Positions 19,596 to 59,140 of a stretch of 64,000 nucleotides of DNA are shown in pieces. The notes under the pieces were generated by a model, which had not been told where the DNA came from, searched no databases, and worked only from the letters and a program-made list of their open reading frames with translations. Position numbers and translations under genes: made by a program. The stretch lies in IMG/VR virus record IMGVR_UViG_3300040856_003054, positions 32,001 through 96,000 of that record; one strand, given 5' to 3'. The stretch's first letter is position 1. Each line of letters starts with the position of its first letter. The stretch comes from a virus.

Positions 19596-19861
19596 AACTG
19601 ATTTCCTTTAAGCATCGTGAGGATTATGGTGATGAGTGGTATGTTCAAATCCTTCATAACAAACGCTGGGCACTACTTCAAGCATCAGTTTCTTGGAATG
19701 AATTTGCTGCTTGGCCTTATATTCAATTAAAATCAGGTAATGGCAGTCTATTGAATCTTATGTTCTGGGCTTATAAGTTTGGATTTGATATTGATGTTTT
19801 TTCTAGGACCTGGAACTTTGAATACCTTAATGAACTTGATGAGGAAGAAGAAACTAAATAG
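19592..19861 (+). CDS. Hypothetical protein (similar to 22831)
   Basis: ATGA overlap; aromatic-rich. Confidence 0.65.
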   Translation: MKLISFKHREDYGDEWYVQILHNKRWALLQASVSWNEFAAWPYIQLKSGNGSLLNLMFWAYKFGFDIDVFSRTWNFEYLNELDEEEETK

Positions 19862-19865
19862 AAGT

Positions 19866-19916
19866 GCCTTAACTGACCGCAATCTGTAAGGTGGGAGGAG
19901 AGAAATCTCCTCCTTT
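19866..19916 (+). ncRNA. Putative endonuclease-associated antisense sRNA, copy 1
   Basis: TAAATA at 19855; stem GCCTTA/TAAGGT; AACTGACCGCA complementary to leader TGCGGTTAGTT; terminator GGAGGAGA-GAAA-TCTCCTCC-TTT; second TATAAATA at 19921. Confidence 0.65.
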
Positions 19917-19956
19917 GTAATATAAATACTAATGCGGTTAGTTTAAGAGTAGAACT

Positions 19957-20853
19957 ATGGTAAATCCATATAGATTTTATACCTATGCCTATTTGCGTGA
20001 GGATAGAACTCCTTACTATGTTGGTAAGGGCACTGGAAAGAGAATATATTCAAAAGAAAAAAATATAAATCTCCCCAAAGATAAATCAAGAATAATCTTC
20101 CTCAAACAAAATATAACAGAAAAAGAAGCATTTAAGCACGAAATCTATATGATTGCCGTGTTTGGTAGAAAAGATTTAGGAACTGGTATTCTTTATAATA
20201 GAACTAATGGTGGTGATGGAATAAGTGGATTTAAACATAGTCAAAAATCTAAAAATGAAATGAGTGAAAAAAGAAGAGGTAAAAATAATGCATTTTATGG
20301 TAAAAAACATTTACCAGAAACAATAAAAAGATTAAGTGAAAATAAGAAAGGAAAATATGTTGGAGATAAAAATCCTTTGTTTGGTAAAAAACATTCACAA
20401 GAAACAAGAAATAAAATAAGTGAAGCAAATGCTGGAAAATATGTTGGAGATAAAAATCCTTTTTATGAAAAAAATCACTCACAAGAAACAAAAGATAAAA
20501 TAAGTAGAGCAAATAAAGGAAGAGTTCTATCTATTGAACTAAGAAATGAAATGAGTAAAAGAGTAAAAGGTGAGAATAATCCTATGTTTGGAAAAAATCA
20601 CTCACAAGAAACAAAAGATAAAATAAGTAAAGTAAGTAAAGGAAAAACTTGCTCCGATGAAATAAAACAAAAAATATCTTCCACACATAATAAACTTCTG
20701 CGTTTTATATCACCGACTGGAGAAGTTATAGAGGAATTCACTACAATTACTAAATTTTGTAAAAAATATAATTTACATAAATCCAATTTGATTAAATTGA
20801 TGAAAGGAAAAAGTAAAACTTGTAAAGGATGGACACTTTACAAACTGGAATAG
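19957..20853 (+). CDS. Free-standing GIY-YIG homing endonuclease with NUMOD3 repeats
   Basis: FYTYAYLREDRTPYYVGKG; repeated NP.(F/Y)GK.HSQETK.KIS; C-terminal HTH-like tail. Confidence 0.85.
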   Translation: MVNPYRFYTYAYLREDRTPYYVGKGTGKRIYSKEKNINLPKDKSRIIFLKQNITEKEAFKHEIYMIAVFGRKDLGTGILYNRTNGGDGISGFKHSQKSKNEMSEKRRGKNNAFYGKKHLPETIKRLSENKKGKYVGDKNPLFGKKHSQETRNKISEANAGKYVGDKNPFYEKNHSQETKDKISRANKGRVLSIELRNEMSKRVKGENNPMFGKNHSQETKDKISKVSKGKTCSDEIKQKISSTHNKLLRFISPTGEVIEEFTTITKFCKKYNLHKSNLIKLMKGKSKTCKGWTLYKLE

Positions 20854-20887
20854 GACACACCAAAATCTTGTATGAATGTCCTATAAT
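20831..20887 (+). promoter_or_regulatory. Palindrome-type early promoter overlapping the endonuclease 3' end
   Basis: GGACACTT-TACA-AACTGGAAT, TATAAT at 20882. Confidence 0.7.
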
Positions 20888-20914
20888 GACTTCATATACA
20901 ACAAAACCAATCCT

Positions 20915-21184
20915 ATGAGATTTAGAAACATAGAATTTAGATGGAGTAAATGCAACAACAAGTATGAACTCGTCAAGTGGAATACTCCAACAGAAGATAG
21001 TTTCTTCAAAGATCCAACTTGTTATGTGATTGCCTTCTTTGATAAAGACAAAGAGGGTTATAATATGAGAACTATATCTTCAAGATTTTTTGAAGATAAA
21101 GATGCATTCGTAGTGGGAAAATACGCAATTGAGTTTCTCAACGAAACTTTTGAAATTGAAAGACAAGAAGAAGAACTTAAATAA
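20915..21184 (+). CDS. Conserved hypothetical protein
   Basis: MRFRNIEFRW...; first ATG after the promoter. Confidence 0.7.
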   Translation: MRFRNIEFRWSKCNNKYELVKWNTPTEDSFFKDPTCYVIAFFDKDKEGYNMRTISSRFFEDKDAFVVGKYAIEFLNETFEIERQEEELK

Positions 21185-21192
21185 ATAAAGAT

Positions 21193-21248
21193 GCTTATGT
21201 GTGTCGCAACCAGAAGCAAAGATGGGGTGCTTTCGGGCACCTTTTCTT
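21193..21248 (+). ncRNA. Putative endonuclease-associated antisense sRNA, copy 2
   Basis: TAAATA at 21182; stem TGCTT/AAGCA; GTGTCGCAA complementary to leader TTGCGACAC; terminator GGTGC-TTTCGG-GCACC-TTTT; TATAAATA at 21250. Confidence 0.65.
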
Positions 21249-21285
21249 GTATAAATAGTATTGCGACACAACATAAAGCAGAACT

Positions 21286-22014
21286 ATGGAACTCAAAGAG
21301 TATCATTATGTCTATTATTCCTATGAGGAATATGGTAGAGGATATTTTGGTAGTAGAACTTGTAAATGCCTACCAGAAGAAGATATAAAGTATTTTGGTT
21401 CTTTTAGTGATAAGACATTCAAACCAACTCAAAAAATAATACTCAAAAGTGATTATGCTACAAGAGAAGAGGCATATGCCGATGAGATTATTTTACAACA
21501 ATACTACAAAGTAGTGGAAAATCCACACTTTGCTAATAGAGCATATCAAACTTCTTCAAAATTTCATAATGGAATGACGACAGAAAAAGCAAAAGAATTG
21601 GGAAATAAGACAAAAGAACTTGGTGTAGGTATTCATTCACTTACTTACGAACAAAGGAGTGAATATGGTAAAAAATCAACCGAAATAGCAAAAAAACTTG
21701 GTGTTGGACTTTATGGTTTTACAAAAGAACAAAGAAGTGAAAATGGTAAAAAATCAAAAGAACTTGGTGTTGGTATTTTTTCTTATACAAAAAAACAATT
21801 GAGTGAAAATGGGTTTAATGGTGGAAAAAAAGCATATGAAATGAAAGTTGGGGTTCACGCACTTACCAGAGAACAAATGAGTGAAAATTCTAAGAAAGTT
21901 GCCTCGCAAAAATGGAAATGTCTTGAAACTGGTTTCATTTCTAATGCTGGGGGACTTGCTTGTTATCAAAGAAAAAGAGGAATAGACACCTCCAAAAGAA
22001 TAAGATTATCATAA
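21286..22014 (+). CDS. Free-standing GIY-YIG homing endonuclease
   Basis: HYVYYSYEEYGRGYFGSR; C-terminal LGVG...T.EQ.SE.GKK repeats. Confidence 0.8.
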   Translation: MELKEYHYVYYSYEEYGRGYFGSRTCKCLPEEDIKYFGSFSDKTFKPTQKIILKSDYATREEAYADEIILQQYYKVVENPHFANRAYQTSSKFHNGMTTEKAKELGNKTKELGVGIHSLTYEQRSEYGKKSTEIAKKLGVGLYGFTKEQRSENGKKSKELGVGIFSYTKKQLSENGFNGGKKAYEMKVGVHALTREQMSENSKKVASQKWKCLETGFISNAGGLACYQRKRGIDTSKRIRLS

Positions 22015-22071
22015 GACACTTGGGAAACTGGCACAAGGGCATCTCCACAGGTGCCCTTTTTGGTCTATAAT
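22014..22071 (+). promoter_or_regulatory. Palindrome-type early promoter with terminator-like spacer hairpin
   Basis: AGACACTT-GGGA-AACTGGCAC, AAGGGCAT/GTGCCCTT-TTT, TATAAT at 22066. Confidence 0.75.
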
Positions 22072-22092
22072 GACTTCATAAGAAACAAACCG

Positions 22093-22401
22093 ATGATTGA
22101 AATCACATTTACAAGAGAAGAACTCCGTCATCTTTATGATGTTCTTCTTAGAAATAATCTTCAAGTCAAGCAATCAGTAATGAATAAAATTGATGAAGAA
22201 CTTATTGCCGATGAAATCTATGAACTTCTTGGTGATCTTGAGTGTTTGGATCCTACTCTTGATGAGGAATGGCAGAACAAACTATGGTATGATGACCCAG
22301 AAGATGAGCACACTATTGCTGTGAAACGAAACCGTGACCTGTGGAATCGTCAAACGATTGCTGAGCTCAAAACTCTTATTGGTAAACTTGAAGAAAAATG
22401 A
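22093..22401 (+). CDS. Hypothetical protein
   Basis: First ATG after the promoter. Confidence 0.65.
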   Translation: MIEITFTREELRHLYDVLLRNNLQVKQSVMNKIDEELIADEIYELLGDLECLDPTLDEEWQNKLWYDDPEDEHTIAVKRNRDLWNRQTIAELKTLIGKLEEK

Positions 22402-22571
22402 ACTACCTCTGCCTTGTTGATGGTCTTGTAGAATACGCCAGCACTTCTGAAAGTTCCTTTGCTCATTACCAACTGATGTATGCCGAAGAACACCAAGATG
22501 CTGATGTTCAGTATCTCACACTGACTGATGAAGAGTATGATGCCATGTTCCCTGTGGAGGATGAAGAATGA
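22398..22571 (+). CDS. Small acidic hypothetical protein (57 aa, not in the ORF track)
   Basis: MNYLCLVDGLVEYA...; ATGA overlaps at both ends. Confidence 0.65.
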   Translation: MNYLCLVDGLVEYASTSESSFAHYQLMYAEEHQDADVQYLTLTDEEYDAMFPVEDEE

Positions 22572-22828
22572 CTAACTGGAAAAAACTTATTCAACTAGAA
22601 ATGAATAGTTTTGATGAAACCTTTGATGATGTTGTGAGTTCTACTCTTACAAAAGAAGAACTCCTTGAAAATTTTGATGATGGTTATGGAGGAAGTGAAG
22701 GAGTTTCATTTACTCTTTGGACTACTAATCGTGTTTATTTCCCTGCGGTCTATGATGGTGCTGAATGGGTAGAAAGTGTATCACGCAATCCTGACGGAAA
22801 ACCAACACCTCATATTGGAGGACAATAA
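22568..22828 (+). CDS. Conserved phage protein
   Basis: FDDGYGG.EG..FT.WT..RVYFP..YDG.EWV.SV.RNP. Confidence 0.75.
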   Translation: MTNWKKLIQLEMNSFDETFDDVVSSTLTKEELLENFDDGYGGSEGVSFTLWTTNRVYFPAVYDGAEWVESVSRNPDGKPTPHIGGQ

Positions 22829-22830
22829 AA

Positions 22831-23076
22831 ATGAAACTCTTTCAATACGATAAAAAAGTTTGGGAAAATGGTGAAACTGACCGCACTTGGCAGTTTGGCA
22901 TCTTCAACAATCGTTCATTACTTTGGGTGAATTATGAAAATCCCAGTAGTTTAGTTCATAGTAATGGTGGATTTCACATCATGCTCTCATTTTTTACTTC
23001 TTCTTCTCTTTTTGGAGTAGATTTTCAAGTTGGTAAATTTGGTTTAAGTTTTCATTTCTTTACTGAATACTGTTGA
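22831..23076 (+). CDS. Hypothetical protein
   Basis: GGAGG RBS. Confidence 0.6.
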   Translation: MKLFQYDKKVWENGETDRTWQFGIFNNRSLLWVNYENPSSLVHSNGGFHIMLSFFTSSSLFGVDFQVGKFGLSFHFFTEYC

Positions 23077-23088
23077 GGAGTGGGATGA

Positions 23089-23289
23089 ATGAAAGTTTAT
23101 GATTACCGAATTGTAGAGAAACTTAATGTGGATACTATGAAACCTTATTTCATAATTCAAAAATACAATCTTCTTACACAAGAATATAACCTCCACTCAA
23201 ATGCACGTATTCAAACACTTGAAGAAGCACAAGAAGCAATACGACTAATCAGGAAATACAAAGAACCTATCTATCATTATGTGAAATGA
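23089..23289 (+). CDS. Hypothetical protein
   Basis: GAGGAG RBS. Confidence 0.65.
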   Translation: MKVYDYRIVEKLNVDTMKPYFIIQKYNLLTQEYNLHSNARIQTLEEAQEAIRLIRKYKEPIYHYVK

Positions 23290-23594
23290 CTAACACCGCA
23301 TACCAAATCTGGGAAGCATTCAAAGCAGAACTTACACAACCAGCAACAGATGATATGAAAGAAGCACTGGCATCTTCTATTCGTACTCTTGCAGAATTTG
23401 AAGACATCAAACCAGTTTCTGTTGGACCTTGTGATGATACTTATGGTAGATGGGATAGAATAGAAACTATATCTCAGCAAGATTATAACTACGAAAAAGC
23501 ATTAACAATAAAAAAATCACAAGTATCTACTTACAGAAAAATTCTTAGTATTGCTGATGAACTTGAAAACCTAAACACTTTGGAGATTAACTAA
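23286..23594 (+). CDS. Hypothetical protein (paralogue of 26936)
   Basis: AY..WEAFKAEL...TDDMKEALASSIR shared with 26936. Confidence 0.7.
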   Translation: MTNTAYQIWEAFKAELTQPATDDMKEALASSIRTLAEFEDIKPVSVGPCDDTYGRWDRIETISQQDYNYEKALTIKKSQVSTYRKILSIADELENLNTLEIN

Positions 23595-23932
23595 TGAAAT
23601 TTAATTATTATACAGAAGTTTTAAAAAATACATACTGTGAAGAATATAATTTTCACTTCATTTTAACCGAAGATGAAATTAGAAGGAATCTTCATACACG
23701 AGGACTTACTCTTAATTCTATATATGGTTTATTTCCACCAGATTCTCCTGATGATTATAGAATGAGAGCATCCATAGAAATTATTAGGGACTCTCTTTAT
23801 GGTGAGAATGTTGATTTAGGTATTGACTATAAGAAGAAGTATGAGGAACTTGTAGAACTTCTTGAACCATGTAAAATTGATGATATGCCCCCAAAAACAA
23901 CATTAAAAATGATTCTAAAATATAACAAATGA
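23594..23932 (+). CDS. Hypothetical protein
   Basis: TAATG overlap. Confidence 0.6.
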   Translation: MKFNYYTEVLKNTYCEEYNFHFILTEDEIRRNLHTRGLTLNSIYGLFPPDSPDDYRMRASIEIIRDSLYGENVDLGIDYKKKYEELVELLEPCKIDDMPPKTTLKMILKYNK

Positions 23933-24108
23933 GTTATCGTTGGTTAAAAACAGAAGACCTAGAAAATGCTATTAGGCATCAAAACATTATTAATTCCAGA
24001 GTGAAACGAGGAGAGATTGAACAACCGACAGAATATTCTTATGTTGTGTGTGGTTGTGGTGATCCAGGATGTGGATTTATGAGTATTCATACAAAAGACA
24101 ATCCTTGA
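23929..24108 (+). CDS. Small Cys-motif protein (CGCGDPGC; 59 aa, not in the ORF track)
   Basis: ATGA overlap; open to TGA at 24108. Confidence 0.55.
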   Translation: MSYRWLKTEDLENAIRHQNIINSRVKRGEIEQPTEYSYVVCGCGDPGCGFMSIHTKDNP

Positions 24109-24152
24109 ACTGCCCACTGACCTCCCAAAGGTCGGTGATTTTCCTGTATAAT
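24096..24152 (+). promoter_or_regulatory. Palindrome-type early promoter
   Basis: AGACAATC-CTTG-AACTGCCCA, hairpin CACTGACC/GGTCGGTG, TATAAT at 24147. Confidence 0.7.
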
Positions 24153-24175
24153 GATTTCATACACAAATAACCCAA

Positions 24176-24667
24176 ATGAAGCACAAACTTCTCCAGAACA
24201 TCACTGAATATCGCAACTGGGCATGGTATGTCTATCAGTATTGGTATAACCATAAAAGTACCTTAACTCTATCAATTCTTGCGACTGATAAGGATCGTGA
24301 TGTTCGTTGTTGGGTTGCAAAACACCCAAACACAACAACAGAAACTTTAACAGTTCTTGTGACTGATGAGTATTGGGATGTTCGTTATTGGGTTGCACAA
24401 CACCCAAACACATCACAAGAAACTCTAGCAATTCTTGTGACTGATGAGGATTGGGTTGTTCGTTGTGCGGTTGCACAACACCCAAACACATCACAAGAAT
24501 CTCTAGCAGTCCTTGCGACTGATAAGTATCCTGTTGTTCGTATTTGGGTTGCACAACACCCAAACACATCACAAGAAACTCTAGCAATTCTTGCGACTGA
24601 TATGGATTCTGTTGTTCGTCGTTGTGTTGCAAAACTCCCACCCACATCACAAGAAACAGACTCTTGA
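24176..24667 (+). CDS. Leucine-rich-variant (LRV)/HEAT-like repeat protein
   Basis: About five 26-aa repeats LA.L.TD....VR..VA.HPNTS.E, seen as 78-bp DNA repeats. Confidence 0.85.
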   Translation: MKHKLLQNITEYRNWAWYVYQYWYNHKSTLTLSILATDKDRDVRCWVAKHPNTTTETLTVLVTDEYWDVRYWVAQHPNTSQETLAILVTDEDWVVRCAVAQHPNTSQESLAVLATDKYPVVRIWVAQHPNTSQETLAILATDMDSVVRRCVAKLPPTSQETDS

Positions 24668-24743
24668 ACTGAATATGAAACAGTATGATGTCCCGAAGAA
24701 ACTCATTGAGTCTTCACAAGATGAGTCTCTTAAGGGTATTATG

Positions 24744-24800
24744 TGACACCTAAAGAACCGACCACTGACCTCCCAAAGGTCGGTGATTTTGTCGTATAAT
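24744..24800 (+). promoter_or_regulatory. Palindrome-type early promoter (near-duplicate of 24096)
   Basis: Shares CCACTGACCTCCCAAAGGTCGGTGATTTT with the 24096 copy; TATAAT at 24795. Confidence 0.7.
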
Positions 24801-24825
24801 ACTCTCATACACACAAACAACCCAA

Positions 24826-25104
24826 ATGACTTCCAAAATTCCTGCTTGTAAGAATTGTAAGCATTTTCAAGAAAGTCCTGATGAGATTTTCAGCACTTGT
24901 GCCCTTTATCAGTATGAGAAGGTTGATTACTTCAACGGCAAAGTGAGTGAGTATAATTGTCTTGCTCTTGCTATGAGGGACAGTGAAGACCATTGTGGTC
25001 GTGAAGGTAAGGACTTTGAGATGAAAGAGTTTGTAGAAGAGGAAGAAGATATTTCCTTCTGGGAATACTTCAAAGGATTTTTCACAAAGAGTTGGATGTT
25101 TTGA
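24826..25104 (+). CDS. Cys-rich hypothetical protein
   Basis: CKNCKHF...C...C...R....CGREGK.F. Confidence 0.7.
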   Translation: MTSKIPACKNCKHFQESPDEIFSTCALYQYEKVDYFNGKVSEYNCLALAMRDSEDHCGREGKDFEMKEFVEEEEDISFWEYFKGFFTKSWMF

Positions 25105-25106
25105 TT

Positions 25107-25283
25107 ATGACTGTTGCTGAAATCATTGAGAAACTCCATCAGTATCCACCTGATATGAGAGTTGAAATTACTGATGGATATAAGCTTCATTTCTATAGAG
25201 GTGATTTTGCTTTTCAACTCTTTGAGGGTGATGATGGAGAAACTTTTGTAGATATTGGTATTGGAGGATTTGATTATGACTGA
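25107..25283 (+). CDS. Hypothetical protein
   Basis: MTVAEIIEKL..YP.DM.V motif. Confidence 0.65.
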   Translation: MTVAEIIEKLHQYPPDMRVEITDGYKLHFYRGDFAFQLFEGDDGETFVDIGIGGFDYD

Positions 25284-25467
25284 ACAACAAGAAACATTTC
25301 TCATTAACAAACTCAAAGAAATTGCAGGTCAAAAAACTTGCTATGAGATGTATGGAGACTTTTATGATGCTGTTCCACAAGCATCAACAAGAATTTTTAC
25401 TGATGGAATTGATTATGGTAAAATCAATCTTTGTAGAGAACTTTTGAAAGATTTGGGTGATGATTGA
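25276..25467 (+). CDS. Hypothetical protein
   Basis: GGAGG RBS. Confidence 0.6.
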   Translation: MTEQQETFLINKLKEIAGQKTCYEMYGDFYDAVPQASTRIFTDGIDYGKINLCRELLKDLGDD

Positions 25468-25809
25468 CTTTCTCAAAGGATACCTATCCGTCATTATACT
25501 ATCTCTACTGATAGGCAAAGCAATTGTTCTTTCCACACCACCAGAATCTAAAGTTCATAATTGTATTCCAGCACAAAAAACTATTGTAAAATGACTAACG
25601 AAAAAATACTTGAACTTGCTGATGAATTGGAGGCACTCTAAATGAAAAACCTTGCTAACACTATTTTTATTTTAGTTTGGGTTACGGGTATGGTATTATC
25701 TCCCAATCTTCTTCTTAAAGGTGTCGCATTCTTTTTCCCACCATATTCACTTTGTGTTGTGGTTGAAAGAGTGATTACAACTTATGCTCCAGAACTTCTC
25801 AAATAATAT

Positions 25810-26022: not shown

Positions 26023-26103
26023 TGAACTGGATGTGATGTTTAATGCTGGATGGGATGAATGTCTCAAAGAGATTGATGCTATTTGTGATGAATTGGAGGA
26101 ACT

Positions 26104-26584: not shown

Positions 26585-26607
26585 ACTCTTATACACACAG
26601 AAACCTG

Positions 26608-26928: not shown

Positions 26929-26935
26929 ATGACTA

Positions 26936-27363: not shown

Positions 27364-27364
27364 A

Positions 27365-28836: not shown

Positions 28837-28894
28837 TTGAACTGCGGATAGTTGAACCAAAAGATGATATATAAGAGTTGGTATAAATAATAAT

Positions 28895-28951
28895 GCTCTA
28901 ATGAGTTCGCATCCATAAGAGTGGAAAAGGTGTCTTCAGGCACCTTTTCTT
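28895..28951 (+). ncRNA. Putative endonuclease-associated antisense sRNA, copy 3
   Basis: TATAAATA at 28882; stem GCTCT/AGAGT; TGAGTTCGCA complementary to leader TGCGAACTCA; terminator AAAAGGTGTC-TTCA-GGCACCTTTT; TATAAATA at 28953. Confidence 0.65.
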
Positions 28952-28990
28952 GTATAAATAGTATTGCGAACTCAATTTAGAAGCAGAACT

Positions 28991-34842: not shown

Positions 34843-35066
34843 CTGAAGAAGACAAGTATGCTCTCAAAGAGTTTCTGCGTGGTGCTGGTGCATTTCTTCT
34901 TGCCTCTGCTGTCTTTCTTGCTTACTTTGCATCTGGTGATAAACCAATCAATGAAGCATCATTTGAAGTGGTTGATAAGTATGATAATCGTTGTAATGTA
35001 ATACGATATACTCCTAATAATTCTGCACGATATGTTTATTTCTTGGATTGTTCATCTAAATACTAA
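34839..35066 (+). CDS. Small membrane protein
   Basis: TM plus FEVVD.Y...C.VIRY.P......YFLDC. Confidence 0.7.
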   Translation: MTEEDKYALKEFLRGAGAFLLASAVFLAYFASGDKPINEASFEVVDKYDNRCNVIRYTPNNSARYVYFLDCSSKY

Positions 35067-35067
35067 T

Positions 35068-35118
35068 GCCTTAACTGACCGCAATCTGTAAGGTGGGAGG
35101 AGAGAAATCTCCTCCTTT
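35068..35118 (+). ncRNA. Putative endonuclease-associated antisense sRNA, copy 4 (identical to copy 1)
   Basis: TAAATA at 35057; 35067-35190 identical to 19865-19988; TATAAATA at 35123. Confidence 0.65.
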
Positions 35119-35158
35119 GTAATATAAATACTAATGCGGTTAGTTTAAGAGTAGAACT

Positions 35159-35854
35159 ATGGTAAATCCATATAGATTTTATACCTATGCTTATTTGCGT
35201 GAGGATGGAACTCCCTATTACATAGGCAAAGGTAAAGAAAATAGAGCATATAAGAAAGTTAAGGGTGAAGTTGGAAAACCAACTGACAAATCAAGAATAA
35301 TTTTTCTCAAACAAAATCTAACTGAAGAAGAAGCATTTAGACATGAAATCTACATGATTGCTGTGTTTGGGAGAATTGATTTGGGAACTGGCATTCTTCG
35401 CAATAAAACTGATGGTGGTGAAGGTTCTACTGGATTAAAAATGTCCGATGAAAGTAAACAAAAGATAAGTAAAATTCATAAAGGTAAAACTCTTTCTGAA
35501 AAACATAAACAAATACTTGAAAAACATAGAGTTAAAAAACATTCCAAACAAACTATAGAAAAACTAAAAAAATCAAAAATAGGAAATAAATGGAATGTTG
35601 GAAGAAAACTTTCAGAAGAACATAAAGAAAAAATAAGAAAATGGAACTTGAATAAAATTGTTAGTGAAGAAACTAAAATAAAAATAAGTCAGTCAAAAAA
35701 AGGAAAACCTCAAAGTGAAAATCAAAAAGAAGCAATTAAAATGTTATGTCAAAAAGTAAGAGGAACAAAATGGTGGAATGATGGGCAAATCAACAAAAGA
35801 AGTGTAGAATGTCCTGGTGATGGTTGGAATTTGGGTAGAGTTAGGTTGTCATAA
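35159..35854 (+). CDS. Free-standing GIY-YIG homing endonuclease with NUMOD3
   Basis: FYTYAYLREDGTPYYIGKG; C-terminal KWWNDG...PGDGW..GR module. Confidence 0.85.
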   Translation: MVNPYRFYTYAYLREDGTPYYIGKGKENRAYKKVKGEVGKPTDKSRIIFLKQNLTEEEAFRHEIYMIAVFGRIDLGTGILRNKTDGGEGSTGLKMSDESKQKISKIHKGKTLSEKHKQILEKHRVKKHSKQTIEKLKKSKIGNKWNVGRKLSEEHKEKIRKWNLNKIVSEETKIKISQSKKGKPQSENQKEAIKMLCQKVRGTKWWNDGQINKRSVECPGDGWNLGRVRLS

Positions 35855-36552: not shown

Positions 36553-36810
36553 ATGATTTCTCCTTACAATGTAGTTCCTGGAACTGATATTGTTCATAGC
36601 ATCACTGATTGTTATGAACTCTGTGATGAAGCAGAAGGATGCACTCACACTGTAAAACTTAATGCGGATAATGGTGGTGTTTACTTGGAATCAATAGGAA
36701 AGCAACACGATAGTGAGCACAGAGGTATCACTGAATATATGACTATCTCAAACAAAGAACTTGCTATAGTAGTCGCAAAAAGGATTTTGGAATTGTACAA
36801 CGCAGTATAA
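36553..36810 (+). CDS. Hypothetical protein
   Basis: ORF after the promoter. Confidence 0.65.
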   Translation: MISPYNVVPGTDIVHSITDCYELCDEAEGCTHTVKLNADNGGVYLESIGKQHDSEHRGITEYMTISNKELAIVVAKRILELYNAV

Positions 36811-36818
36811 ATAAAAAT

Positions 36819-36877
36819 GTCTGTTTGGACTGCAATCTCTACGGACAAGATTAGGTGCTCTTTGGGGCACCTTTTCT
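36819..36877 (+). ncRNA. Putative endonuclease-associated antisense sRNA, copy 5
   Basis: TATAAATA at 36806; stem TGTCTGT/ACGGACA; TCTGTTTGGACTGCA complementary to leader TGCAGTCCAAATAGA; terminator AGGTGCTC-TTTG-GGGCACCT-TTT; TATAAATA at 36890. Confidence 0.7.
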
Positions 36878-36922
36878 ATTATAAAGTTTTATAAATAATA
36901 ATGCAGTCCAAATAGAATAGAA

Positions 36923-37744
36923 ATGACTAATCATAGTCCTAGAATTTATGTGTATAAAATCACATTTGAAGAAGTTCCTTATTATTACTATGGAGTCCAT
37001 AAGGAAAATAAGTTTGATGAATACTATATGGGTTCTCCTTATACTCATAAATGGGTTTGGGATTTTTATACACCTAAAAAACAAATACTTCAACTTTTTG
37101 AGTTTAGTGATGAAGGTTGGTCAGAAGCAAACGAAATAGAACAAAGATTGATTAGACCTGTATTCAATACAGATAAATGGTGTCTCAACGAAAATTGTGG
37201 TAGAGTAGTTTCTCTTAATATCTTAAGGGAAAATGGTAAAAAAGTTAGTGAAAAATATTCAAGTATAAATGGTAAAAAGAATGGAAAAAAATCTTATGAA
37301 CTTGGATTAGGAATTCACGGAAGAACCAAGGAGCAAAGAACTGAAGATTGTGGTAAAGGTGGGAAAATAATGGGAGAAAAACATAAAAAAGATGGAACTG
37401 GAATTTTTGCAATTACTTCAGAAGAAAGAACTGAAATCGGTAAAAGAATGGGAAAAATAAATTATGAACTTGGTATTGGTGTTCACGGAAGAACCAAAGA
37501 AAAAATGACCGAAGATGGGAAAAAGGGAGGTAAAATCACAGCAGAAAATCATAAAAGAAATAAAACAGGAATTTTTGGAATAGATGACGAACAAAAAAGA
37601 AAAAATAGTATAAAAGGTGGTAGAAGGACATCCTCTCAAAAATGGATGTGCCTTGAAACTGGTTATGTTAGTAATGCTGGTGGACTTTCTCATTATCAAA
37701 AGAAAAGAAATATAGACACATCTAAAAGAGTTAGAATATCATAA
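36923..37744 (+). CDS. Free-standing GIY-YIG (Seg-like) homing endonuclease
   Basis: IYVYKITF...YYYYGVH...YMGS; C-terminus like that of 21286. Confidence 0.8.
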   Translation: MTNHSPRIYVYKITFEEVPYYYYGVHKENKFDEYYMGSPYTHKWVWDFYTPKKQILQLFEFSDEGWSEANEIEQRLIRPVFNTDKWCLNENCGRVVSLNILRENGKKVSEKYSSINGKKNGKKSYELGLGIHGRTKEQRTEDCGKGGKIMGEKHKKDGTGIFAITSEERTEIGKRMGKINYELGIGVHGRTKEKMTEDGKKGGKITAENHKRNKTGIFGIDDEQKRKNSIKGGRRTSSQKWMCLETGYVSNAGGLSHYQKKRNIDTSKRVRIS

Positions 37745-41272: not shown

Positions 41273-41493
41273 TGGACTTTCCAGTGTTCTTAAATAAATG
41301 GATAATCTCCAATAAGTTTCTTAAGTATACTCCATTCTGGTGGTGGTACAGGTTAATATCTCATCAAGGTTTTCGCTTTGATGATTATTATGTGTGGAAG
41401 GAGTTTTGGATGTCCTTAAATCAAGGATATATGGATATGAACTATAAATGGGAGTTTGAACAATATTGGAGTGTAAAACCTAAACATAAATAA
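41269..41493 (+). CDS. Trp-rich hypothetical protein
   Basis: GTGA overlap. Confidence 0.6.
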   Translation: MMDFPVFLNKWIISNKFLKYTPFWWWYRLISHQGFRFDDYYVWKEFWMSLNQGYMDMNYKWEFEQYWSVKPKHK

Positions 41494-41497
41494 TGAT

Positions 41498-41555
41498 GTC
41501 TGTTTGGACGGCAATCTCTACAGACAAAGATTAGGTGCTTTCGGGCACCTTTTCT
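41498..41555 (+). ncRNA. Putative endonuclease-associated antisense sRNA, copy 6
   Basis: TAAATA at 41487; stem TGTCTGT/ACAGACA; TCTGTTTGGACGGCA complementary to leader TGCCGTCCAAATAGA; terminator AGGTGC-TTTCGG-GCACCT-TTT; TATAAATA at 41558. Confidence 0.7.
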
Positions 41556-41590
41556 ATTATAAATAATAATGCCGTCCAAATAGAATAAAG

Positions 41591-42226
41591 ATGAACTATC
41601 TAAAGATTTATTGTAATCTTATCAGGAAAGCAGAGAATAGAACTCCACCTGAAGGTTATACGGAAAAACACCACATATTTCCTAAAAGTATTTTTGGAGA
41701 TAATGATAGAGTTGTAATATTAAGTGGAAGAGAGCATTATATTGCTCACGCATTATTAGAAAAAGCATTTATAAAAAGGTATGGTGGAAATCACAAAAAA
41801 ACTAAAAAGATGTCTTTTGCTTTTTGGTGTATGAATAACCAAAAATCAAAAAATACTTATTTAAATTCTTATTTTTATGAAAGTTCCCGAATGAGAGTTA
41901 GTGGGGAAAATAATATAGCAAAAGACCCAATTATTCGTAAAAAAATAAGTGAGAAAAAACGAGGAAAAAATCATCATCAATATGGAAAACCACATTCCCA
42001 GGAAACTAAAAATAAGATAAGTAAAAAGAGGAGTGGAAAAAATAATCATATGTCTAAACATTGGAAAATTACATTTTCCAATGGAAATGAAATTGTATTG
42101 TGTGGATTATATAAATGGTCCAGGGAAAATGGATATTGTGCTACTCATATTATTGGAGTTTGTCGTGGAAAAAGAAACTATCATAAAGATATTGTGTCAG
42201 TTGAAGAACTGGCACAAATTTCTTGA
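41591..42226 (+). CDS. Free-standing HNH (Mob-like) homing endonuclease with NUMOD3
   Basis: YTEKHHIFPKS..G.N..VV.L..REHYIAHALL. Confidence 0.85.
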   Translation: MNYLKIYCNLIRKAENRTPPEGYTEKHHIFPKSIFGDNDRVVILSGREHYIAHALLEKAFIKRYGGNHKKTKKMSFAFWCMNNQKSKNTYLNSYFYESSRMRVSGENNIAKDPIIRKKISEKKRGKNHHQYGKPHSQETKNKISKKRSGKNNHMSKHWKITFSNGNEIVLCGLYKWSRENGYCATHIIGVCRGKRNYHKDIVSVEELAQIS

Positions 42227-56371: not shown

Positions 56372-56419
56372 GTGGGCAGCAACATTGCGGGGGCGTAAGG
56401 TTGTGTAAGTCCCACTTTT
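56372..56419 (+). ncRNA. Variant antisense stem-loop upstream of the HNH endonuclease (copy 7)
   Basis: Outer stem GTGGG/CCCAC plus TTTT, inner stem CAAC/GTTG, loop TTGCGGGGG complementary to leader CCCCCGCAA after TATAAATA at 56424. No upstream TAAATA seen. Confidence 0.45.
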
Positions 56420-56450
56420 ATGGTATAAATAATAATACCCCCGCAAAAGA

Positions 56451-57227
56451 ATGATGAACTATCTAAAAGTTTATTGTAACCTCATCAGGAAAGCAGAGAA
56501 TAGAACTCCACCTGAAGGTTATACGGAAAAACATCATATATTTCCAAAGAGCATTTATGGAAATAACAATAGAGTTGTAATTTTCACTGCAAGAGAGCAC
56601 TATATTGCTCACGCATTATTGGAAAAAGTTTGTATCCAAAGGTATGGATTGAAAGATAAAAGAACTATAAAAATGATTTATGCCCATAGTGGAATGAAAG
56701 GTAATAATGGTTATATCAATTCCACTTTATATGAAGGTGCAAGAAAAAGAAGAAGTGATAATATGAAAGGAAAACCTTTGTATATTCCAACTGAAAAGCA
56801 TAAAGAAGAAATCAGACAAAGAAGATTGGGAACCAAAGCATCCGAAGAAACAAAAAGAAAAATGAGCGAATCGCATAGAGGTAAAAAATGTCCTCCAAGA
56901 AGTGAAGAATGGAAAAAAAGGGTGGGTGAGAGAATGAAAAAATATGTTGGAGAAAAAAATCCTTTTTATGGAAAAAAACATACAGAAGAAACTAAAAGAA
57001 AGATAAGTGATTCGAAAAAAGGTAAAAAGTATGATAAGAAAATAATAAAAAAATCAAAATACTTATGCAAAGTTAAAAATTCCAAAGGAGAAGTATTTTC
57101 TACCACAAATTTAAAAAATTTTTGTAGAGAAAATAATCTAAACCCCAGTTGCATGTATAGAATAATATCTGGCAAACAAATTCAACATAAAGGATGGGAA
57201 ATTGTTGAAAGAATTAAAATAGAATGA
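56451..57227 (+). CDS. Free-standing HNH homing endonuclease with NUMOD3 repeats
   Basis: YTEKHHIFPKS...TAREHYIAHALL; NPFYGKKHTEETKRKIS. Confidence 0.85.
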   Translation: MMNYLKVYCNLIRKAENRTPPEGYTEKHHIFPKSIYGNNNRVVIFTAREHYIAHALLEKVCIQRYGLKDKRTIKMIYAHSGMKGNNGYINSTLYEGARKRRSDNMKGKPLYIPTEKHKEEIRQRRLGTKASEETKRKMSESHRGKKCPPRSEEWKKRVGERMKKYVGEKNPFYGKKHTEETKRKISDSKKGKKYDKKIIKKSKYLCKVKNSKGEVFSTTNLKNFCRENNLNPSCMYRIISGKQIQHKGWEIVERIKIE

Positions 57228-57493
57228 AAAAGAAAAAAGGATTTCTTTATTATGTTTACTGTGCTTTGGGTGAAAAATCTCATCCACATTGCAACAAAAC
57301 AGCAGATAGAGTTGCTCTTATTCGTTTATTGATTACTCTACAAATTTTAATCACTAATGGTTTTATTGTTGCTAATGCCATCCGACATTGGAATGATAAA
57401 ACAACCATCCAAGTTGTGATTGATTCTTCAACTCTTCCAGAATATCAAACACCAGAAGCAATAAAAACTAATAAATCCTTTGAGTTCGAATAA
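57224..57493 (+). CDS. Conserved cyanophage membrane protein
   Basis: ALGEKS......AD.VA.IR......TN.FIVA..IRHW. Confidence 0.7.
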   Translation: MKKKKGFLYYVYCALGEKSHPHCNKTADRVALIRLLITLQILITNGFIVANAIRHWNDKTTIQVVIDSSTLPEYQTPEAIKTNKSFEFE

Positions 57494-57512
57494 ATAATCA
57501 AAAACAAGAAAG

Positions 57513-57929
57513 ATGCTGACATTTAGAGAGTTCTACGAAATCTGTGAAGGTAAGAAACCTGATACTCCTCCACACGCAGTTCCTGGGACTGTGAATAGAG
57601 ATTCTAGTGGCACTCTAACATATACTCTTCAGCGTTATGATGGACCAAAGGTTAAACCATCAAAGAAAGAAATTGAGAACCAAGTATTAGACCAGAGTGG
57701 TAGAAACAAAGTAGAAAAACATGCCAAGAGAGTGGCAAAGTCAATTAAAAAAATTGAAGAAGATATTGAAACAAGACGTAGAGAGTTGAGACAGAGACAA
57801 AAAGATCAAATGTCAGCACAAAGAGAACGTGTTGCAGGTTATCATGCAGCACAACAAGAGAAAAAAGAAAAGGAATCAGAAAGAGAAGAACTTAAAAAAG
57901 AAATCAAGAGAGAACTCAAGGACAGTTGA
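57513..57929 (+). CDS. Putative capsid internal protein with capsid-targeting N-terminus
   Basis: MLTFREFYEICE resembles the T4 CTS (MKTYQEFIAE); TAAATA at 57491. Confidence 0.6.
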   Translation: MLTFREFYEICEGKKPDTPPHAVPGTVNRDSSGTLTYTLQRYDGPKVKPSKKEIENQVLDQSGRNKVEKHAKRVAKSIKKIEEDIETRRRELRQRQKDQMSAQRERVAGYHAAQQEKKEKESEREELKKEIKRELKDS

Positions 57930-57976
57930 GGAACCGTCCACCATTCTCACACAAGCACCTTAATCTCCTGTATATT
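57920..57976 (+). promoter_or_regulatory. Palindrome-type early promoter
   Basis: GGACAGTT-GAGG-AACCGTCCA, TATATT at 57971. Confidence 0.65.
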
Positions 57977-58136
57977 ACATTTGTTCAGTTGAGGAACACC
58001 AAATGAATCACTTTGATGATATTCAGGTTGAAGAACTTGAAAACTTTGACTTTTGTTTTGATGGTCTCTTCGATGAAGAAGAGAAAGATGCACAATCTTT
58101 CAACTCTTACCTGAACTCTAACATTGATTATTGATT

Positions 58137-58343
58137 ATGACTGACACTGTTAATGTTCTTCCTCACATCCGAGAACTGAAAGATACTTGGCGTCGTCAAG
58201 ATTTCAGTTTCACTAAATCGCAGAAAGAAGAATACGATCTCTTGATTGCTGCTCGTCGTGAAAGGGTAAAACAACATTATAAAGAAGGAAAAGTTTGCAC
58301 AATCAGCAAATCTGCAATGGACAAACTTAAAGAAGATAACTAA
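58137..58343 (+). CDS. Conserved cyanophage hypothetical protein
   Basis: EL...WR.QDF..T..Q...YD.L..ARRERV. Confidence 0.7.
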   Translation: MTDTVNVLPHIRELKDTWRRQDFSFTKSQKEEYDLLIAARRERVKQHYKEGKVCTISKSAMDKLKEDN

Positions 58344-58351
58344 ATAATGAT

Positions 58352-58409
58352 GCCTGAAGTTGACTGACATCTCTACAGGCAGAGGAGGAGCAGAAATGCT
58401 CCTTTTCTT
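58352..58409 (+). ncRNA. Putative endonuclease-associated antisense sRNA, copy 8
   Basis: TAAATA at 58341; stem TGCCTG/CAGGCA; loop AAGTTGACTGAC complementary (12/12) to leader GTCAGTCAACTT; terminator AGGAGCA-GAAA-TGCTCCT-TTT; TATAAATA at 58411. Confidence 0.7.
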
Positions 58410-58447
58410 GTATAAATACTTAAGTCAGTCAACTTAAGAGCAGAACT

Positions 58448-59140
58448 ATGGTCAAAAATCCATATAGATTTTATACCTATGCCTATTTGCGTGAGGATAG
58501 AACTCCTTATTACATAGGTAAGGGTAGTGGAAGAAGAATATATGATAAAAATGGAAGACCTTGTGGTAAACCGAAAGATAAATCCAGAATTATTTTCTTA
58601 AAGCAAAATCTAACCGAAGAAGAAGCATTCAAACACGAAATCTATATGATTTCTGTGTTTGGTAGAAAAGATTTGGGGACAGGTATTCTTCATAATAAAA
58701 CCGATGGAGGTGATGGAGTTTCTGGGGTAATAGTTAGTGAAGAAACAAGAGAAAAATTAAGAAAATCATCTACAAAATATAATAATGAAGGTCAAAGAAA
58801 ATTGGCAAACAAAAAAACTCATAAAAATTATTATCTAAAGAATAAAGAAAAAATATCACGATACTATAAAGAAAAATATAAGAAAATGAGTTCTGATTTG
58901 GAATGGATGGAGAATCAAAGATTAAAACAAAGAATACCTAAAGAAAATCAAAAAACAAATAGATTGTGGAAAACTTGGAAAATAACTTTCAGTGATGGTA
59001 GAATATTGGAAATGACTGGATTATATAATTGGTGTAAAAATAATGGATATAGTGATGGGTTAGTTTATCAGGTAGCAAAAGGCACCAGAAATAAACATAA
59101 AGATATTGTGTCAGTAGAACAACTGACCACTTACTCTTGA
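58448..59140 (+). CDS. Free-standing GIY-YIG homing endonuclease
   Basis: FYTYAYLREDRTPYYIGKG; C-terminus like those of 41591 and 28991. Confidence 0.85.
   Translation: MVKNPYRFYTYAYLREDRTPYYIGKGSGRRIYDKNGRPCGKPKDKSRIIFLKQNLTEEEAFKHEIYMISVFGRKDLGTGILHNKTDGGDGVSGVIVSEETREKLRKSSTKYNNEGQRKLANKKTHKNYYLKNKEKISRYYKEKYKKMSSDLEWMENQRLKQRIPKENQKTNRLWKTWKITFSDGRILEMTGLYNWCKNNGYSDGLVYQVAKGTRNKHKDIVSVEQLTTYS

What the first reader, a model, noticed from the sequence alone, without database searches (positions are those of the whole stretch)
19855..59140. Family of late promoter - antisense stem-loop sRNA - terminator - late promoter - endonuclease cassettes, each sRNA matching only its own nuclease leader
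SEEN: seven free-standing endonuclease genes (ATG at 19957, 21286, 28991, 35159, 36923, 41591, 58448) share a ~100-115 nt upstream layout. It runs TAAATA-N4-TG; a 5-7 bp stem with a ~15-19 nt loop; a GC hairpin plus U-tract; a second TATAAATA-N4; then a ~20-25 nt leader to the ATG. The loop differs between copies but is always the reverse complement of the start of that copy's own leader: AACTGACCGCA/TGCGGTTAGTT (copies 1 and 4), GTGTCGCAA/TTGCGACAC, TGAGTTCGCA/TGCGAACTCA, TCTGTTTGGACTGCA/TGCAGTCCAAATAGA, TCTGTTTGGACGGCA/TGCCGTCCAAATAGA and AAGTTGACTGAC/GTCAGTCAACTT. Mismatches in these cores are G-U wobbles on the + strand RNA, which favours RNA-RNA pairing. KNOWN: T4 endonuclease genes such as I-TevI are silenced in early read-through transcripts by a simple cis hairpin over the RBS, bypassed by an internal late promoter. 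DIFFERENT HERE: the antisense half has its own late promoter and terminator and is displayed in a loop, so it should be a separate ~50-60 nt RNA. INFERENCE: orthogonal sRNA/endonuclease pairs with type I toxin-antitoxin-like logic, able to act in trans (including on co-infecting relatives). A nuclease-associated guide or autoregulatory RNA is a less likely alternative.
Basis: partly seen in the sequence, partly recalled or inferred. Interest (0 to 1): 0.92.

Follow-up and report, generated by a model that had tools for sequence, protein, structure and literature searches.

The report
Two-promoter RNA mask on cyanophage nucleases
Seven selfish DNA-cutting genes in this T4-like cyanophage each carry a movable control module of about 105 bases whose upstream hairpin pairs with the start of the gene's own message; this extends a known phage T4 trick and may also make a small antisense RNA that nobody has yet observed.

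Summary
All seven cassettes have the stated layout. The same virus record holds two more outside the window.

The upstream arm pairs with the first 15-20 nt of the nuclease mRNA, ending 4-6 nt before the AUG. This arm is the 5' half of stem-loop 1 plus its loop.

An 18-mer scan of IMG/VR gave about 100 distinct related cassettes. Arm and leader co-vary strongly: 92.1% of cells are paired against 73.2% in shuffles (0 of 500 shuffles as high). All 10 long-range pairs show compensatory changes.

The masking helix with a nested late promoter is the known T4 I-TevI / Aeh1 mobE design. Dassa et al. 2009 already noted such hairpins in cyanophage-like metagenome loci.

What looks new is the first late-promoter box plus a strong terminator:
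- The box is exact in 99 of 100 family members and has the same extended signature as the second promoter.
- It lies at the left edge of the mobile insert in 6 of 6 occupied/empty allele pairs.
- Together with the terminator it predicts a 53-59 nt two-hairpin RNA.

No RNA data could show this RNA, so trans action is plausible but unproven.

This scan has flagged the same cassette before in at least 17 other genomes. I rate it a new variant of a known kind.

The parts
19855..19956 (+). Control module, copy 1
   Evidence: Coordinates: P1 box 19855-19860; predicted RNA +1 at 19866; stem-loop 1 19866-19892; terminator 19893-19914 with U tract to 19918; P2 box 19921-19928; predicted mRNA +1 at 19934.. 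R1 hit 75.7 bits. R2 hit.
19957..20853 (+). Homing endonuclease gene 1 (298 aa)
   Evidence: NUMOD3 E 1.7e-36. phrog_314 homing endonuclease E 1.1e-25. Sub-threshold LEM-3 GIY-YIG hit in the N-terminal 100 aa.
21182..21285 (+). Control module, copy 2
   Evidence: Coordinates: P1 21182-21187; RNA +1 21193; stem-loop 1 21193-21217; terminator 21219-21248; P2 21250-21257; mRNA +1 21263.. R1 hit 101 bits.
21286..22014 (+). Putative nuclease gene 2 (242 aa)
   Evidence: No Pfam or PHROG hit. The N-terminus is 55-59% identical to two other copies, one of which (7803-8291) hits phrog_314. Atlas leads to NUMOD3/GIY-YIG at 0.94.
28884..28990 (+). Control module, copy 3
   Evidence: Coordinates: P1 28884-28889; RNA +1 28895; stem-loop 1 28895-28922; terminator 28923-28950; P2 28953-28960; mRNA +1 28966.. 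R1 hit 97.3 bits. 96.5% identical to a site in phage S-SRM01.
28991..29638 (+). Homing endonuclease gene 3 (215 aa)
   Evidence: NUMOD3 E 5.8e-16. phrog_314 E 7.7e-15.
35057..35158 (+). Control module, copy 4
   Evidence: From the stem-loop to the ATG it is identical to copy 1. Coordinates: P1 35057-35062; RNA +1 35068; stem-loop 1 35068-35094; terminator 35095-35116; P2 35123-35130; mRNA +1 35136..
35159..35854 (+). Homing endonuclease gene 4 (231 aa)
   Evidence: NUMOD3 E 2e-11. phrog_314 E 3.6e-13.
36808..36922 (+). Control module, copy 5
   Evidence: Coordinates: P1 36808-36813; RNA +1 36819; stem-loop 1 36819-36846; terminator 36848-36877; an extra TATAAAG; P2 36890-36897; mRNA +1 36903.. 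One metatranscriptome contig of a relative skips 36792-37817, that is the module plus the gene.
36923..37744 (+). Putative nuclease gene 5 (273 aa)
   Evidence: No Pfam or PHROG hit. The C-terminal 157 aa are 46% identical to gene 2. Atlas leads only.
41487..41590 (+). Control module, copy 6
   Evidence: Coordinates: P1 41487-41492; RNA +1 41498; stem-loop 1 41498-41525; terminator 41528-41555; P2 41558-41565; mRNA +1 41571.. In the paired core it differs from copy 5 by one compensated change: T to G in the loop and A to C in the leader.
41591..42226 (+). HNH-type homing endonuclease gene 6 (211 aa)
   Evidence: phrog_655 homing endonuclease E 5.2e-34. phrog_12434 HNH endonuclease E 6.3e-13. 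NUMOD3.
58341..58447 (+). Control module, copy 7
   Evidence: Coordinates: P1 58341-58346; RNA +1 58352; stem-loop 1 58352-58380; terminator 58381-58408; P2 58411-58418; mRNA +1 58424.. R1 hit 94.9 bits.
58448..59140 (+). Nuclease gene 7 (230 aa)
   Evidence: Hits phrog_15526 and phrog_10829 (unknown function), shared with genes 1, 3 and 4. 51-73% identical to genes 1, 3 and 4.
56385..57227 (+). HNH nuclease gene with a plain T4-type mask, for comparison (not in the finding)
   Evidence: The arm at 56385-56393 pairs with 56438-46 just after the late box at 56424-56431. There is no first promoter box and no stem-loop 1. The ORF at 56451-57227 is 55% identical to gene 6 and hits phrog_655 at E 1.7e-33.

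Best explanation
Each cassette is a portable silencing module that travels with a free-standing homing endonuclease gene.

**Shown by sequence and covariation.** An RNA helix on the + strand joins the 5' half of stem-loop 1 to the first 15-20 nt of the nuclease message. It ends 4-6 nt before the AUG and covers the Shine-Dalgarno-like AGAG/AAAG region. A strong terminator and a late promoter (P2) sit between the two arms.

**Inferred.**
- The masking arm reaches its target in two ways. In cis, any transcript that reads through the terminator folds into the mask, as in T4 I-TevI.
- In trans, a late promoter (P1) at the left edge of the cassette, together with the terminator, makes a 53-59 nt two-hairpin RNA.
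- The open loop of that RNA seeds pairing with the 5' end of P2 transcripts. Pairing then extends by opening stem 1 and damps translation of the nuclease late in infection.
For: **Helix**
- The full region folds into the long-range helix in 8 of 8 copies tested.
- RNAalifold on 92 cassettes predicts 10 long-range pairs, all 10 with compensatory changes.
- 92.1% of cells are paired against 73.2% in shuffles (0 of 500 as high) and 43-60% when partners are slid.
- The + strand is favoured in 89 of 90 pairs.

**P1 as a promoter**
- Exact TAAATA at the right place in 99 of 100 family members.
- The base before the box is A 65 / C 31 of 96. T at +5 in 94 of 96 and a purine at +6 in 96 of 96, the same signature as P2, while neighbouring columns vary at 1.1-1.8 bits.
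- The same [A/C]TAAATA boxes stand 12-30 nt before many other + strand genes of this record.

**P1 belongs to the cassette**
- In 6 of 6 occupied/empty allele pairs inspected, the insert begins at the box and the empty allele has no TAAATA there.

**The predicted RNA**
- 88 of 88 distinct predicted RNAs fold as two hairpins starting at nt 1 or 2.
- Stem 1 itself co-varies: position 3 is CG 47 / UA 37, position 5 is GC 31 / UA 30 / AU 11. A purely cis mask does not need this.
- Loop bases are 0.92-0.99 unpaired, and cofolding gains 9-16 kcal/mol in 9 of 9 copies.
Against: - No RNA evidence. The five RNA runs found are assembled contigs and cannot show a start, an end or a small RNA.
- The cis mask alone explains the arm/leader covariation and is the published mechanism.
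- A nuclease gene in this same window (56451) manages with a plain mask and no P1 or stem-loop 1.
- P1 and P2 are the same promoter class, so antisense RNA and target would be made together. The benefit of that is unclear.
- P1 sits at the very edge of the insert and often supplies or abuts the upstream gene's stop codon. Its conservation could therefore reflect how the cassette integrates rather than transcription.
- Cultured cyanophages checked because their infections have been studied (Syn9, S-PM2, P-SSM2, P-HM2; that RNA data exist for them is my recollection) lack the cassette. No published test exists.
Confidence: 0.5

Rival explanations
1. Cis mask only. The module is the T4 / Aeh1 design with an added insulator terminator. 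The terminator stops transcripts from upstream, any read-through is translationally masked by the long-range helix, and P2 gives late, unmasked mRNA. The first box is inactive, weak or a by-product. Any short RNA it makes has no function.
For: - The layout is identical to the published masks of I-TevI, I-TevII, I-TevIII, segB and Aeh1 mobE.
- It also matches the hairpins with embedded TATAAATA that Dassa et al. found in 15 of 16 nuclease 5' UTRs, 10 of them with the late box.
- The minimum-energy fold forms the long helix in 8 of 8 copies.
- A plain mask without P1 exists in the same window.
- No RNA was seen.
Against: - It does not explain why an exact late-type box with the full initiation signature is kept in 99 of 100 members, 5 nt before the first paired base of stem 1.
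- It does not explain why that box travels at the edge of the insert in 6 of 6 allele pairs.
- It does not explain why stem 1, which competes with the mask, is kept by compensatory changes.
Confidence: 0.38
2. RNA processing site. The 15-19 bp long-range helix in read-through transcripts, or the duplex between small RNA and mRNA, serves mainly as a double-strand RNase (RNase III-type) target. Cleavage separates or destroys nuclease mRNA rather than blocking ribosomes.
For: The helix length and near-perfect pairing are those of a possible double-strand RNase substrate. RNase processing of seg and mob transcripts is known in T4 and Aeh1.
Against: Nothing in the sequence requires cleavage. The helix ends 4-6 nt before the AUG, where simple occlusion suffices. 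This is a variant of the two readings above, not an exclusive one.
Confidence: 0.06
3. DNA-level element. The inverted repeat around P2 is a protein operator (for example nuclease autorepression, as for I-TevI), or the repeated promoter and stem-loop units act as recombination cassettes that shuffle genes (PeSL-like).
For: - I-TevI represses its own late promoter through an operator.
- The same leader start occurs with several nuclease classes: 37 distinct 8-nt starts among 93 cassettes, and GCGAACCA occurs with three N-terminal classes.
- Indel joints fall at module edges. The modules are therefore shuffled.
Against: - G-T 'wobbles' are tolerated only in the + strand sense, in 89 of 90 pairs. 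That points to RNA, not to a DNA palindrome.
- The arms co-vary freely in sequence, which a protein operator tied to a homing site would not allow.
- Shuffling explains mobility, not the complementarity.
Confidence: 0.04

Closest known systems
Late-promoter-in-hairpin translational masks of T-even homing endonuclease genes (T4 I-TevI, I-TevII, I-TevIII, segB; Aeh1 mobE)
   Same: An RNA helix hides the ribosome site or leader on transcripts from upstream. A TATAAATA late promoter is nested between the arms, so late mRNA lacks the 5' arm. The regulated genes are GIY-YIG or HNH homing nucleases (review passages).
   Different: - Here the 5' arm is itself presented in a conserved local stem-loop.
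- It is preceded by its own late-type box and followed by a strong intrinsic terminator.
- The helix starts at the predicted +1 of the mRNA.
- The whole unit is a portable module found before several nuclease classes.
Hairpins upstream of free-standing endonucleases in cyanophage-like 'fractured gene' loci of ocean metagenomes (Dassa et al. 2009, PMC2677866)
   Same: This is probably the same or a sister element. Hairpins were found in 15 of 16 nuclease 5' UTRs, 10 with TATAAATA inside. Two conserved motifs complement each other, and one allele lacks the nuclease but keeps the hairpin (passages read).
   Different: In the passages I read it is interpreted only as an Aeh1-like translational hairpin. 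No first promoter, terminator or separate RNA is mentioned ('terminator' occurs 0 times in the main text). Their supplementary figure could not be seen.
c4 antisense RNAs of phages P1 and P7 (Citron and Schuster 1990)
   Same: As I recall it, the antisense RNA is encoded upstream of, and on the same strand as, its target leader. Its loops pair with the target's ribosome-site region, and related phages differ by matched changes in loop and target.
   Different: The mechanism is recalled from memory; I saw only the reference title. c4 is processed from the same transcript as its target and controls an antirepressor in a temperate phage. Here there would be a separate promoter and terminator, and the target is a selfish nuclease in a lytic T4-like phage.
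Type I toxin-antitoxin systems
   Same: A small antisense RNA that blocks translation of a harmful protein's mRNA encoded next to it.
   Different: The proteins here are 211-298 aa nucleases, not small membrane peptides. Nothing is known of RNA half-lives. No addiction logic is apparent in a lytic phage.
PeSL mobile regulatory cassettes of T4-type phages (Arbiol et al. 2010; recalled, not read)
   Same: Repeated promoter-plus-stem-loop units lie between genes in plastic regions and are linked to modular shuffling.
   Different: PeSLs carry early sigma-70-type promoters and have no complementarity to a downstream leader. Only the 3' tail of these cassettes, a hairpin followed by TATAAT, looks PeSL-like.

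Membership tests
T4-type late-promoter-in-hairpin mask of homing endonuclease genes | An RNA helix that sequesters the leader or ribosome site on transcripts coming from upstream | tested here: met
   The long-range helix forms in 8 of 8 folds. There are 10 co-varying pairs. It ends 4-6 nt before the AUG.
T4-type late-promoter-in-hairpin mask of homing endonuclease genes | A late promoter (TATAAATA) between the two arms, so that late mRNA lacks the 5' arm | tested here: met
   TATAAATA lies between the arms in 7 of 7 window copies. In 68 of 98 cassettes the duplex reported by the program begins within about 2 nt of the predicted mRNA +1.
T4-type late-promoter-in-hairpin mask of homing endonuclease genes | The regulated gene is a homing endonuclease | tested here: met
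   PHROG homing or HNH endonuclease hits for 4 of 7. NUMOD3 in 4 of 7. Copy 7 is linked by 51-73% identity to copies 1, 3 and 4; copies 2 and 5 only by similarity to other copies.
T4-type late-promoter-in-hairpin mask of homing endonuclease genes | Translation is blocked early and middle, and released late | not testable with these tools
   Needs infection time courses.
Trans-acting antisense small RNA (P1/P7 c4-like) | Its own transcription start | tested here: inconclusive
   The promoter-like signature is conserved and identical to that of P2, but there are no 5'-end data.
Trans-acting antisense small RNA (P1/P7 c4-like) | A defined 3' end and a discrete RNA species | not testable with these tools
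   A GC hairpin plus U tract is present in all copies. The RNA runs are contigs only.
Trans-acting antisense small RNA (P1/P7 c4-like) | An accessible region complementary to the target | tested here: met
   7-9 loop bases at 0.92-0.99 unpaired. Cofolding gains 9-16 kcal/mol in 9 of 9 copies.
Trans-acting antisense small RNA (P1/P7 c4-like) | Cognate-specific repression in trans | not testable with these tools
   The energy matrix predicts specificity, except for copies 1/4 and 5/6. There is no experiment.
Type I toxin-antitoxin | The toxin is a small, usually hydrophobic peptide | tested here: not met
   The products are 211-298 aa nucleases.
Type I toxin-antitoxin | A stable toxin mRNA and a labile antitoxin RNA | not testable with these tools
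   No RNA half-life data.
Any Rfam family | A match to a curated covariance model | tested here: not met
   0 matches at gathering score on the whole window. 0 matches at E up to 1 on 19800-21300.
PeSL cassettes | An early sigma-70-type promoter with a stem-loop between its -35 and -10 boxes | tested here: not met
   The 5' module carries late-type boxes only. The 3' tail after genes 2-5 has a hairpin followed by TATAAT, which was not analysed further.

The most novel reading that the evidence does not exclude
These modules encode a large, previously unrecognised family of phage small RNAs. Each is a 53-59 nt late transcript with a fixed scaffold (stem, terminator) and a variable loop, and it acts in trans on the 5' end of its own homing-endonuclease mRNA. 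There are dozens of mutually orthogonal specificities across freshwater and estuarine T4-like cyanophages. Modules that outlive their nuclease gene (L049, L114, L106, L073) could then still silence an incoming nuclease of the same specificity.
Probability: 0.4. Interest if true: 0.8.

Novelty: new variant of a known kind. Interest (0 to 1): 0.6.

Why it matters
**Biology.** Homing endonucleases must be kept nearly silent in order to persist. The T4 mask has been the textbook answer for decades.
- A version with its own promoter and terminator on the masking arm would add RNA-in-trans control to the biology of selfish nucleases.
- As far as my searches show, it would also be the first regulatory small-RNA family described for T4-like cyanophages.

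**Tools.** The natural set of matched loop/leader pairs on one scaffold is a ready-made library of orthogonal RNA switches.

**Annotation, even if only the cis reading holds.**
- The covariance models built here mark free-standing nuclease cassettes and their exact left edge in metagenomic phage contigs.
- The family is absent from Rfam.

Tried and rejected
**RNA evidence.** The look-up of sequencing runs gave 5 metatranscriptome runs, all kept as contigs, with shares 0.36 to 0.05. Laying four of them on 19801-39800 gave short, low-depth contigs. They show neither starts nor ends nor a small RNA, so nothing can be concluded about expression of the modules.

**Cultured phages.** Model R1 found no true cassette in five of the six cultured phages searched.
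- Syn9 and S-PM2 gave one weak hit each at E about 0.2. On inspection both are just a terminator plus a late box without complementarity.
- P-SSM2 and P-HM2 gave no hit, and neither did S-CREM1.
- Only S-SRM01 has cassettes, six of them.

**Empty sites by synteny.** BLAST of G000 flanks against S-SRM01 was too diverged to define empty sites. I used allele pairs among the IMG/VR loci instead.

**Protein families.**
- Pfam on the N-terminal 100 aa gave only sub-threshold hits.
- PDB sequence searches for genes 2 and 5 gave nothing meaningful.

**Short-ORF idea.** The [A/G]TG after the first box opens reading frames of 2 to 25 codons or more that are not conserved (read), so I rejected a leader peptide.

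**Helix extension.** A 3-4 bp A-U extension of the helix into the first box and the start codon appears in many folds. It is weak, and I do not rely on it.

In one search my script cut the predicted RNAs of copies 5 and 6 too early, inside the terminator. Their stem-loop 1 and duplex figures stand. Their whole-RNA energies do not. One search gives the correct ends.

**Literature.**
- Five full-text searches and passages of six papers showed the cis hairpin as known.
- None showed a promoter-plus-terminator small RNA for these genes.

Full report
**What is there.** The window is bases 32001-96000 of a 136,140-base IMG/VR virus record, 35.8% G+C, estimated 64% complete. Nearly all its genes are on the + strand.

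Each ORF is preceded by the same module of about 105 bases, in this order:
- a late-type box [A/C]TAAATA, called P1 here;
- five bases later, a purine that is the first paired base of a 5-7 bp stem-loop (stem-loop 1);
- a G+C-rich hairpin with a U tract;
- TATAAATA (P2);
- five bases later, a purine that begins a 20-26 nt leader;
- the ATG.

My covariance model of the whole module (R1) finds these seven plus two more in the same record outside the window. One of those lies directly after a tRNA-like 3' end. Rfam has no match at gathering score on the window, and none at E up to 1 on two copies.

**The pairing.**
- The first 14-18 nt of the RNA predicted from P1 pair with the first 15-20 nt of the RNA predicted from P2. 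That stretch is the 5' arm of stem 1 plus its loop. The ATG lies at +20 to +26, so the duplex ends 4-6 nt before it.
- Folding the whole region gives this helix, wrapped around the terminator and P2, in 8 of 8 copies tested.
- In the 9 x 9 matrix for this genome, cognate duplexes are -18.7 to -26.4 kcal/mol and non-cognate ones -3.7 to -15.1. The exceptions are copies 1 and 4, which are identical, and copies 5 and 6, which cross-pair at -20.2.
- In the paired core, copies 5 and 6 differ by one compensated change.

- Together with eight of the record's own copies these gave 105 distinct flanks. Five are unrelated (L010, L021, L034, L045, L065).
- Of the other 100, 99 have an exact TAAATA at the P1 place; L081 has TAATATA instead. 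Also 99 of the 100 have a complementary leader; L114 does not.
- Cognate duplex median is -22.6 kcal/mol against -10.5 for non-cognate pairs.
- On a MAFFT alignment of 92 cassettes, RNAalifold chose 10 long-range pairs, and all 10 show changes on both sides. Examples are CG 47 / UA 43 and CG 51 / GC 37.
- Counting 16 pairs (long-range helix plus terminator) gave 92.1% paired cells against 73.2% in shuffles (0 of 500 shuffles as high). Sliding the partners gave 43-60%. The covariation score was 0.552 against 0.222.
- The duplex is more stable on the + strand than on the - strand in 89 of 90 distinct pairs, so this is RNA of the coding strand.

A model of the upstream half alone (R2) found 23 further modules that were not in my first set. 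Of these, 22 have a cognate leader and one (L049 600-663) has none. In the window R2 finds exactly the seven.

**What is already known.**
- The review of mobile elements in T4-type phages describes stable structures that hide the ribosome site of I-TevI, I-TevII, I-TevIII, segB and Aeh1 mobE. A late promoter is placed so that late transcripts cannot form them (passages).
- Dassa et al. 2009 reported hairpins in 15 of 16 5' UTRs of free-standing endonucleases in cyanophage-like ocean loci. Ten had TATAAATA inside, and two conserved motifs complemented each other. They read these as Aeh1-like translational hairpins (passages).

The masking helix with nested P2 is therefore a known kind of control. 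The window even holds a plain example: the HNH gene at 56451-57227 has a 9 bp G+C-rich arm before its late box and the complement right after it, with no P1 and no stem-loop 1.

**What is not in those descriptions: P1, stem-loop 1 and the terminator.**
- *P1 looks like a working late promoter.* In 96 distinct upstream halves the base before TAAATA is A (65) or C (31) and never G or T. There is a T at +5 in 94 and a purine at +6 in 96. P2 shows the same pattern, while neighbouring columns vary at 1.1-1.8 bits. In the record, TAAATA occurs 97 times on the + strand and 35 on the - strand. 43 of the + strand boxes lie within 60 nt before an ORF start. These include many non-nuclease genes with CTAAATA or ATAAATA 12-30 nt before the ATG.
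- *The RNA that P1 and the terminator would make is well formed.* All 88 distinct predicted RNAs fold into two hairpins starting at nt 1 or 2. Stem 1 co-varies on its own (position 3 CG 47 / UA 37; position 5 GC 31 / UA 30 / AU 11). This count is fitted to each minimum-energy fold, and a shuffle control gave 79% paired against 100% observed. A purely cis mask does not need stem 1, which competes with it. Predicted lengths in the window are 53-59 nt. The 7-9 loop bases that pair with the mRNA are 0.92-0.99 unpaired, and cofolding gains 9-16 kcal/mol in 9 of 9 copies.
- *P1 belongs to the mobile unit.* Among 79 cassette units with both flanks available, many have counterparts without the insert. 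In the 6 pairs I inspected, the insert begins at or within 2 nt of P1's TAAATA, and the empty allele has no TAAATA there. In several pairs P1's TAA, or the TGA just before it, is the stop codon of the upstream gene. One metatranscriptome contig of a relative likewise skips 36792-37817, that is P1 through gene 5 and its tail.

**Portability and decay.**
- The same leader start occurs with different nuclease N-terminal classes. GCGAACCA, for example, occurs with three N-terminal classes. There are 37 distinct 8-nt starts among 93 cassettes.
- Four alleles keep P1, stem-loop 1 and the terminator but have lost the nuclease gene: L114, the L049 orphan, L106 with its twins L116 and L119, and L073.
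- L114, the L049 orphan, the full cassette of L001 and the empty allele of L080 all lie at one genomic site.
- These alleles fit the usual decay of homing genes. Whether the surviving modules do anything is open.

**Weighing.**
- The mask is as good as shown at the sequence level.
- The separate small RNA is a well-motivated prediction, but nothing here shows that P1 fires.
- Its position at the insert edge and its overlap with stop codons leave room for a role in integration instead.
- Antisense RNA and target would share one promoter class and so one timing.
- I put the dual cis-plus-trans reading at 0.50, cis only at 0.38, a processing-site variant at 0.06 and DNA-level readings at 0.04.
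- The type I toxin-antitoxin label fails on the nature of the 'toxin'. The closest trans analogue is the c4 RNA of P1 and P7, whose mechanism I give from memory (title seen).

**Earlier notes of this scan.** One search listed the same cassette in at least 17 other genomes. The follow-up verdicts agree with mine: observation confirmed, sRNA unproven, closest known the T4-type masks. I had formed my reading before opening them and re-tested the claims here. The allele-pair evidence that P1 is the left end of the insert, and the plain-mask gene in the same window, come from my own calls (57, 58, 75, 76) and were not in the summaries I saw.

Noticed in passing
window 56385-57227: An eighth nuclease gene in the window (HNH type, 55% identical to gene 6) has a plain T4-style mask. 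A 9 bp G+C-rich arm lies before a TATAAATA box, with its complement just after the box. There is no first promoter box and no stem-loop 1. It gives a natural internal comparison for the elaborate cassette.
   Followed up: partly
window 7754-8291: A truncated nuclease-like ORF of 162 aa is 55-68% identical to the N-termini of two other copies and hits phrog_314. It lies behind a TATAAATA box and what looks like the remnant of a cassette terminator arm. It is probably a decayed cassette.
   Followed up: partly
window 22015-22095, 29639-29725, 35855-35935, 37745-37825: Directly after the stop codons of genes 2, 3, 4 and 5 lies a conserved tail of about 80 bases: GGACACTT...AACTGGCAC, a G+C hairpin with T tract, then TATAAT (TATGAT after gene 3) about 20-25 bases before the next gene's ATG. 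It looks like a second terminator plus a sigma-70-type restart promoter carried by the cassette, similar in layout to PeSL units.
   Followed up: partly
G000 contig 29270-30087 and 99626-100490 (outside the window): Two more complete cassettes with nuclease genes, with distinct loop/leader pairs. The first starts right after a tRNA-like 3' end. In loci L036 and L082 the cassette also follows a tRNA-like end.
   Followed up: partly
L114 3013-3130; L049 600-663 (- strand); L001 1743-2700; L080 6790-6890: One genomic site, before a gene starting M(L/P/V)LPK..., occurs in four states. They are: empty; full cassette; first promoter, stem-loop, terminator and second promoter without leader or nuclease; and first promoter, stem-loop and terminator only. 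The two nuclease-less forms keep an intact stem-loop of the same specificity.
   Followed up: partly
L076 4428-4560 (- strand): A cassette with a cognate leader whose nuclease ORF has an early in-frame stop after three codons. The following codons still read like the start of the YYYTYY class. It is a probable pseudogene behind an intact control module.
   Followed up: no
window 23238-37818 (several joints): Metatranscriptome contigs from relatives join distant points of the window, for example 28837 to 33389, 26606 to 29636 and 27130 to 36807. Several joints sit at cassette or nuclease-gene edges, which suggests that gene order around the cassettes differs between related phages. Many joints have short sides, so they may be artefacts.
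   Followed up: no
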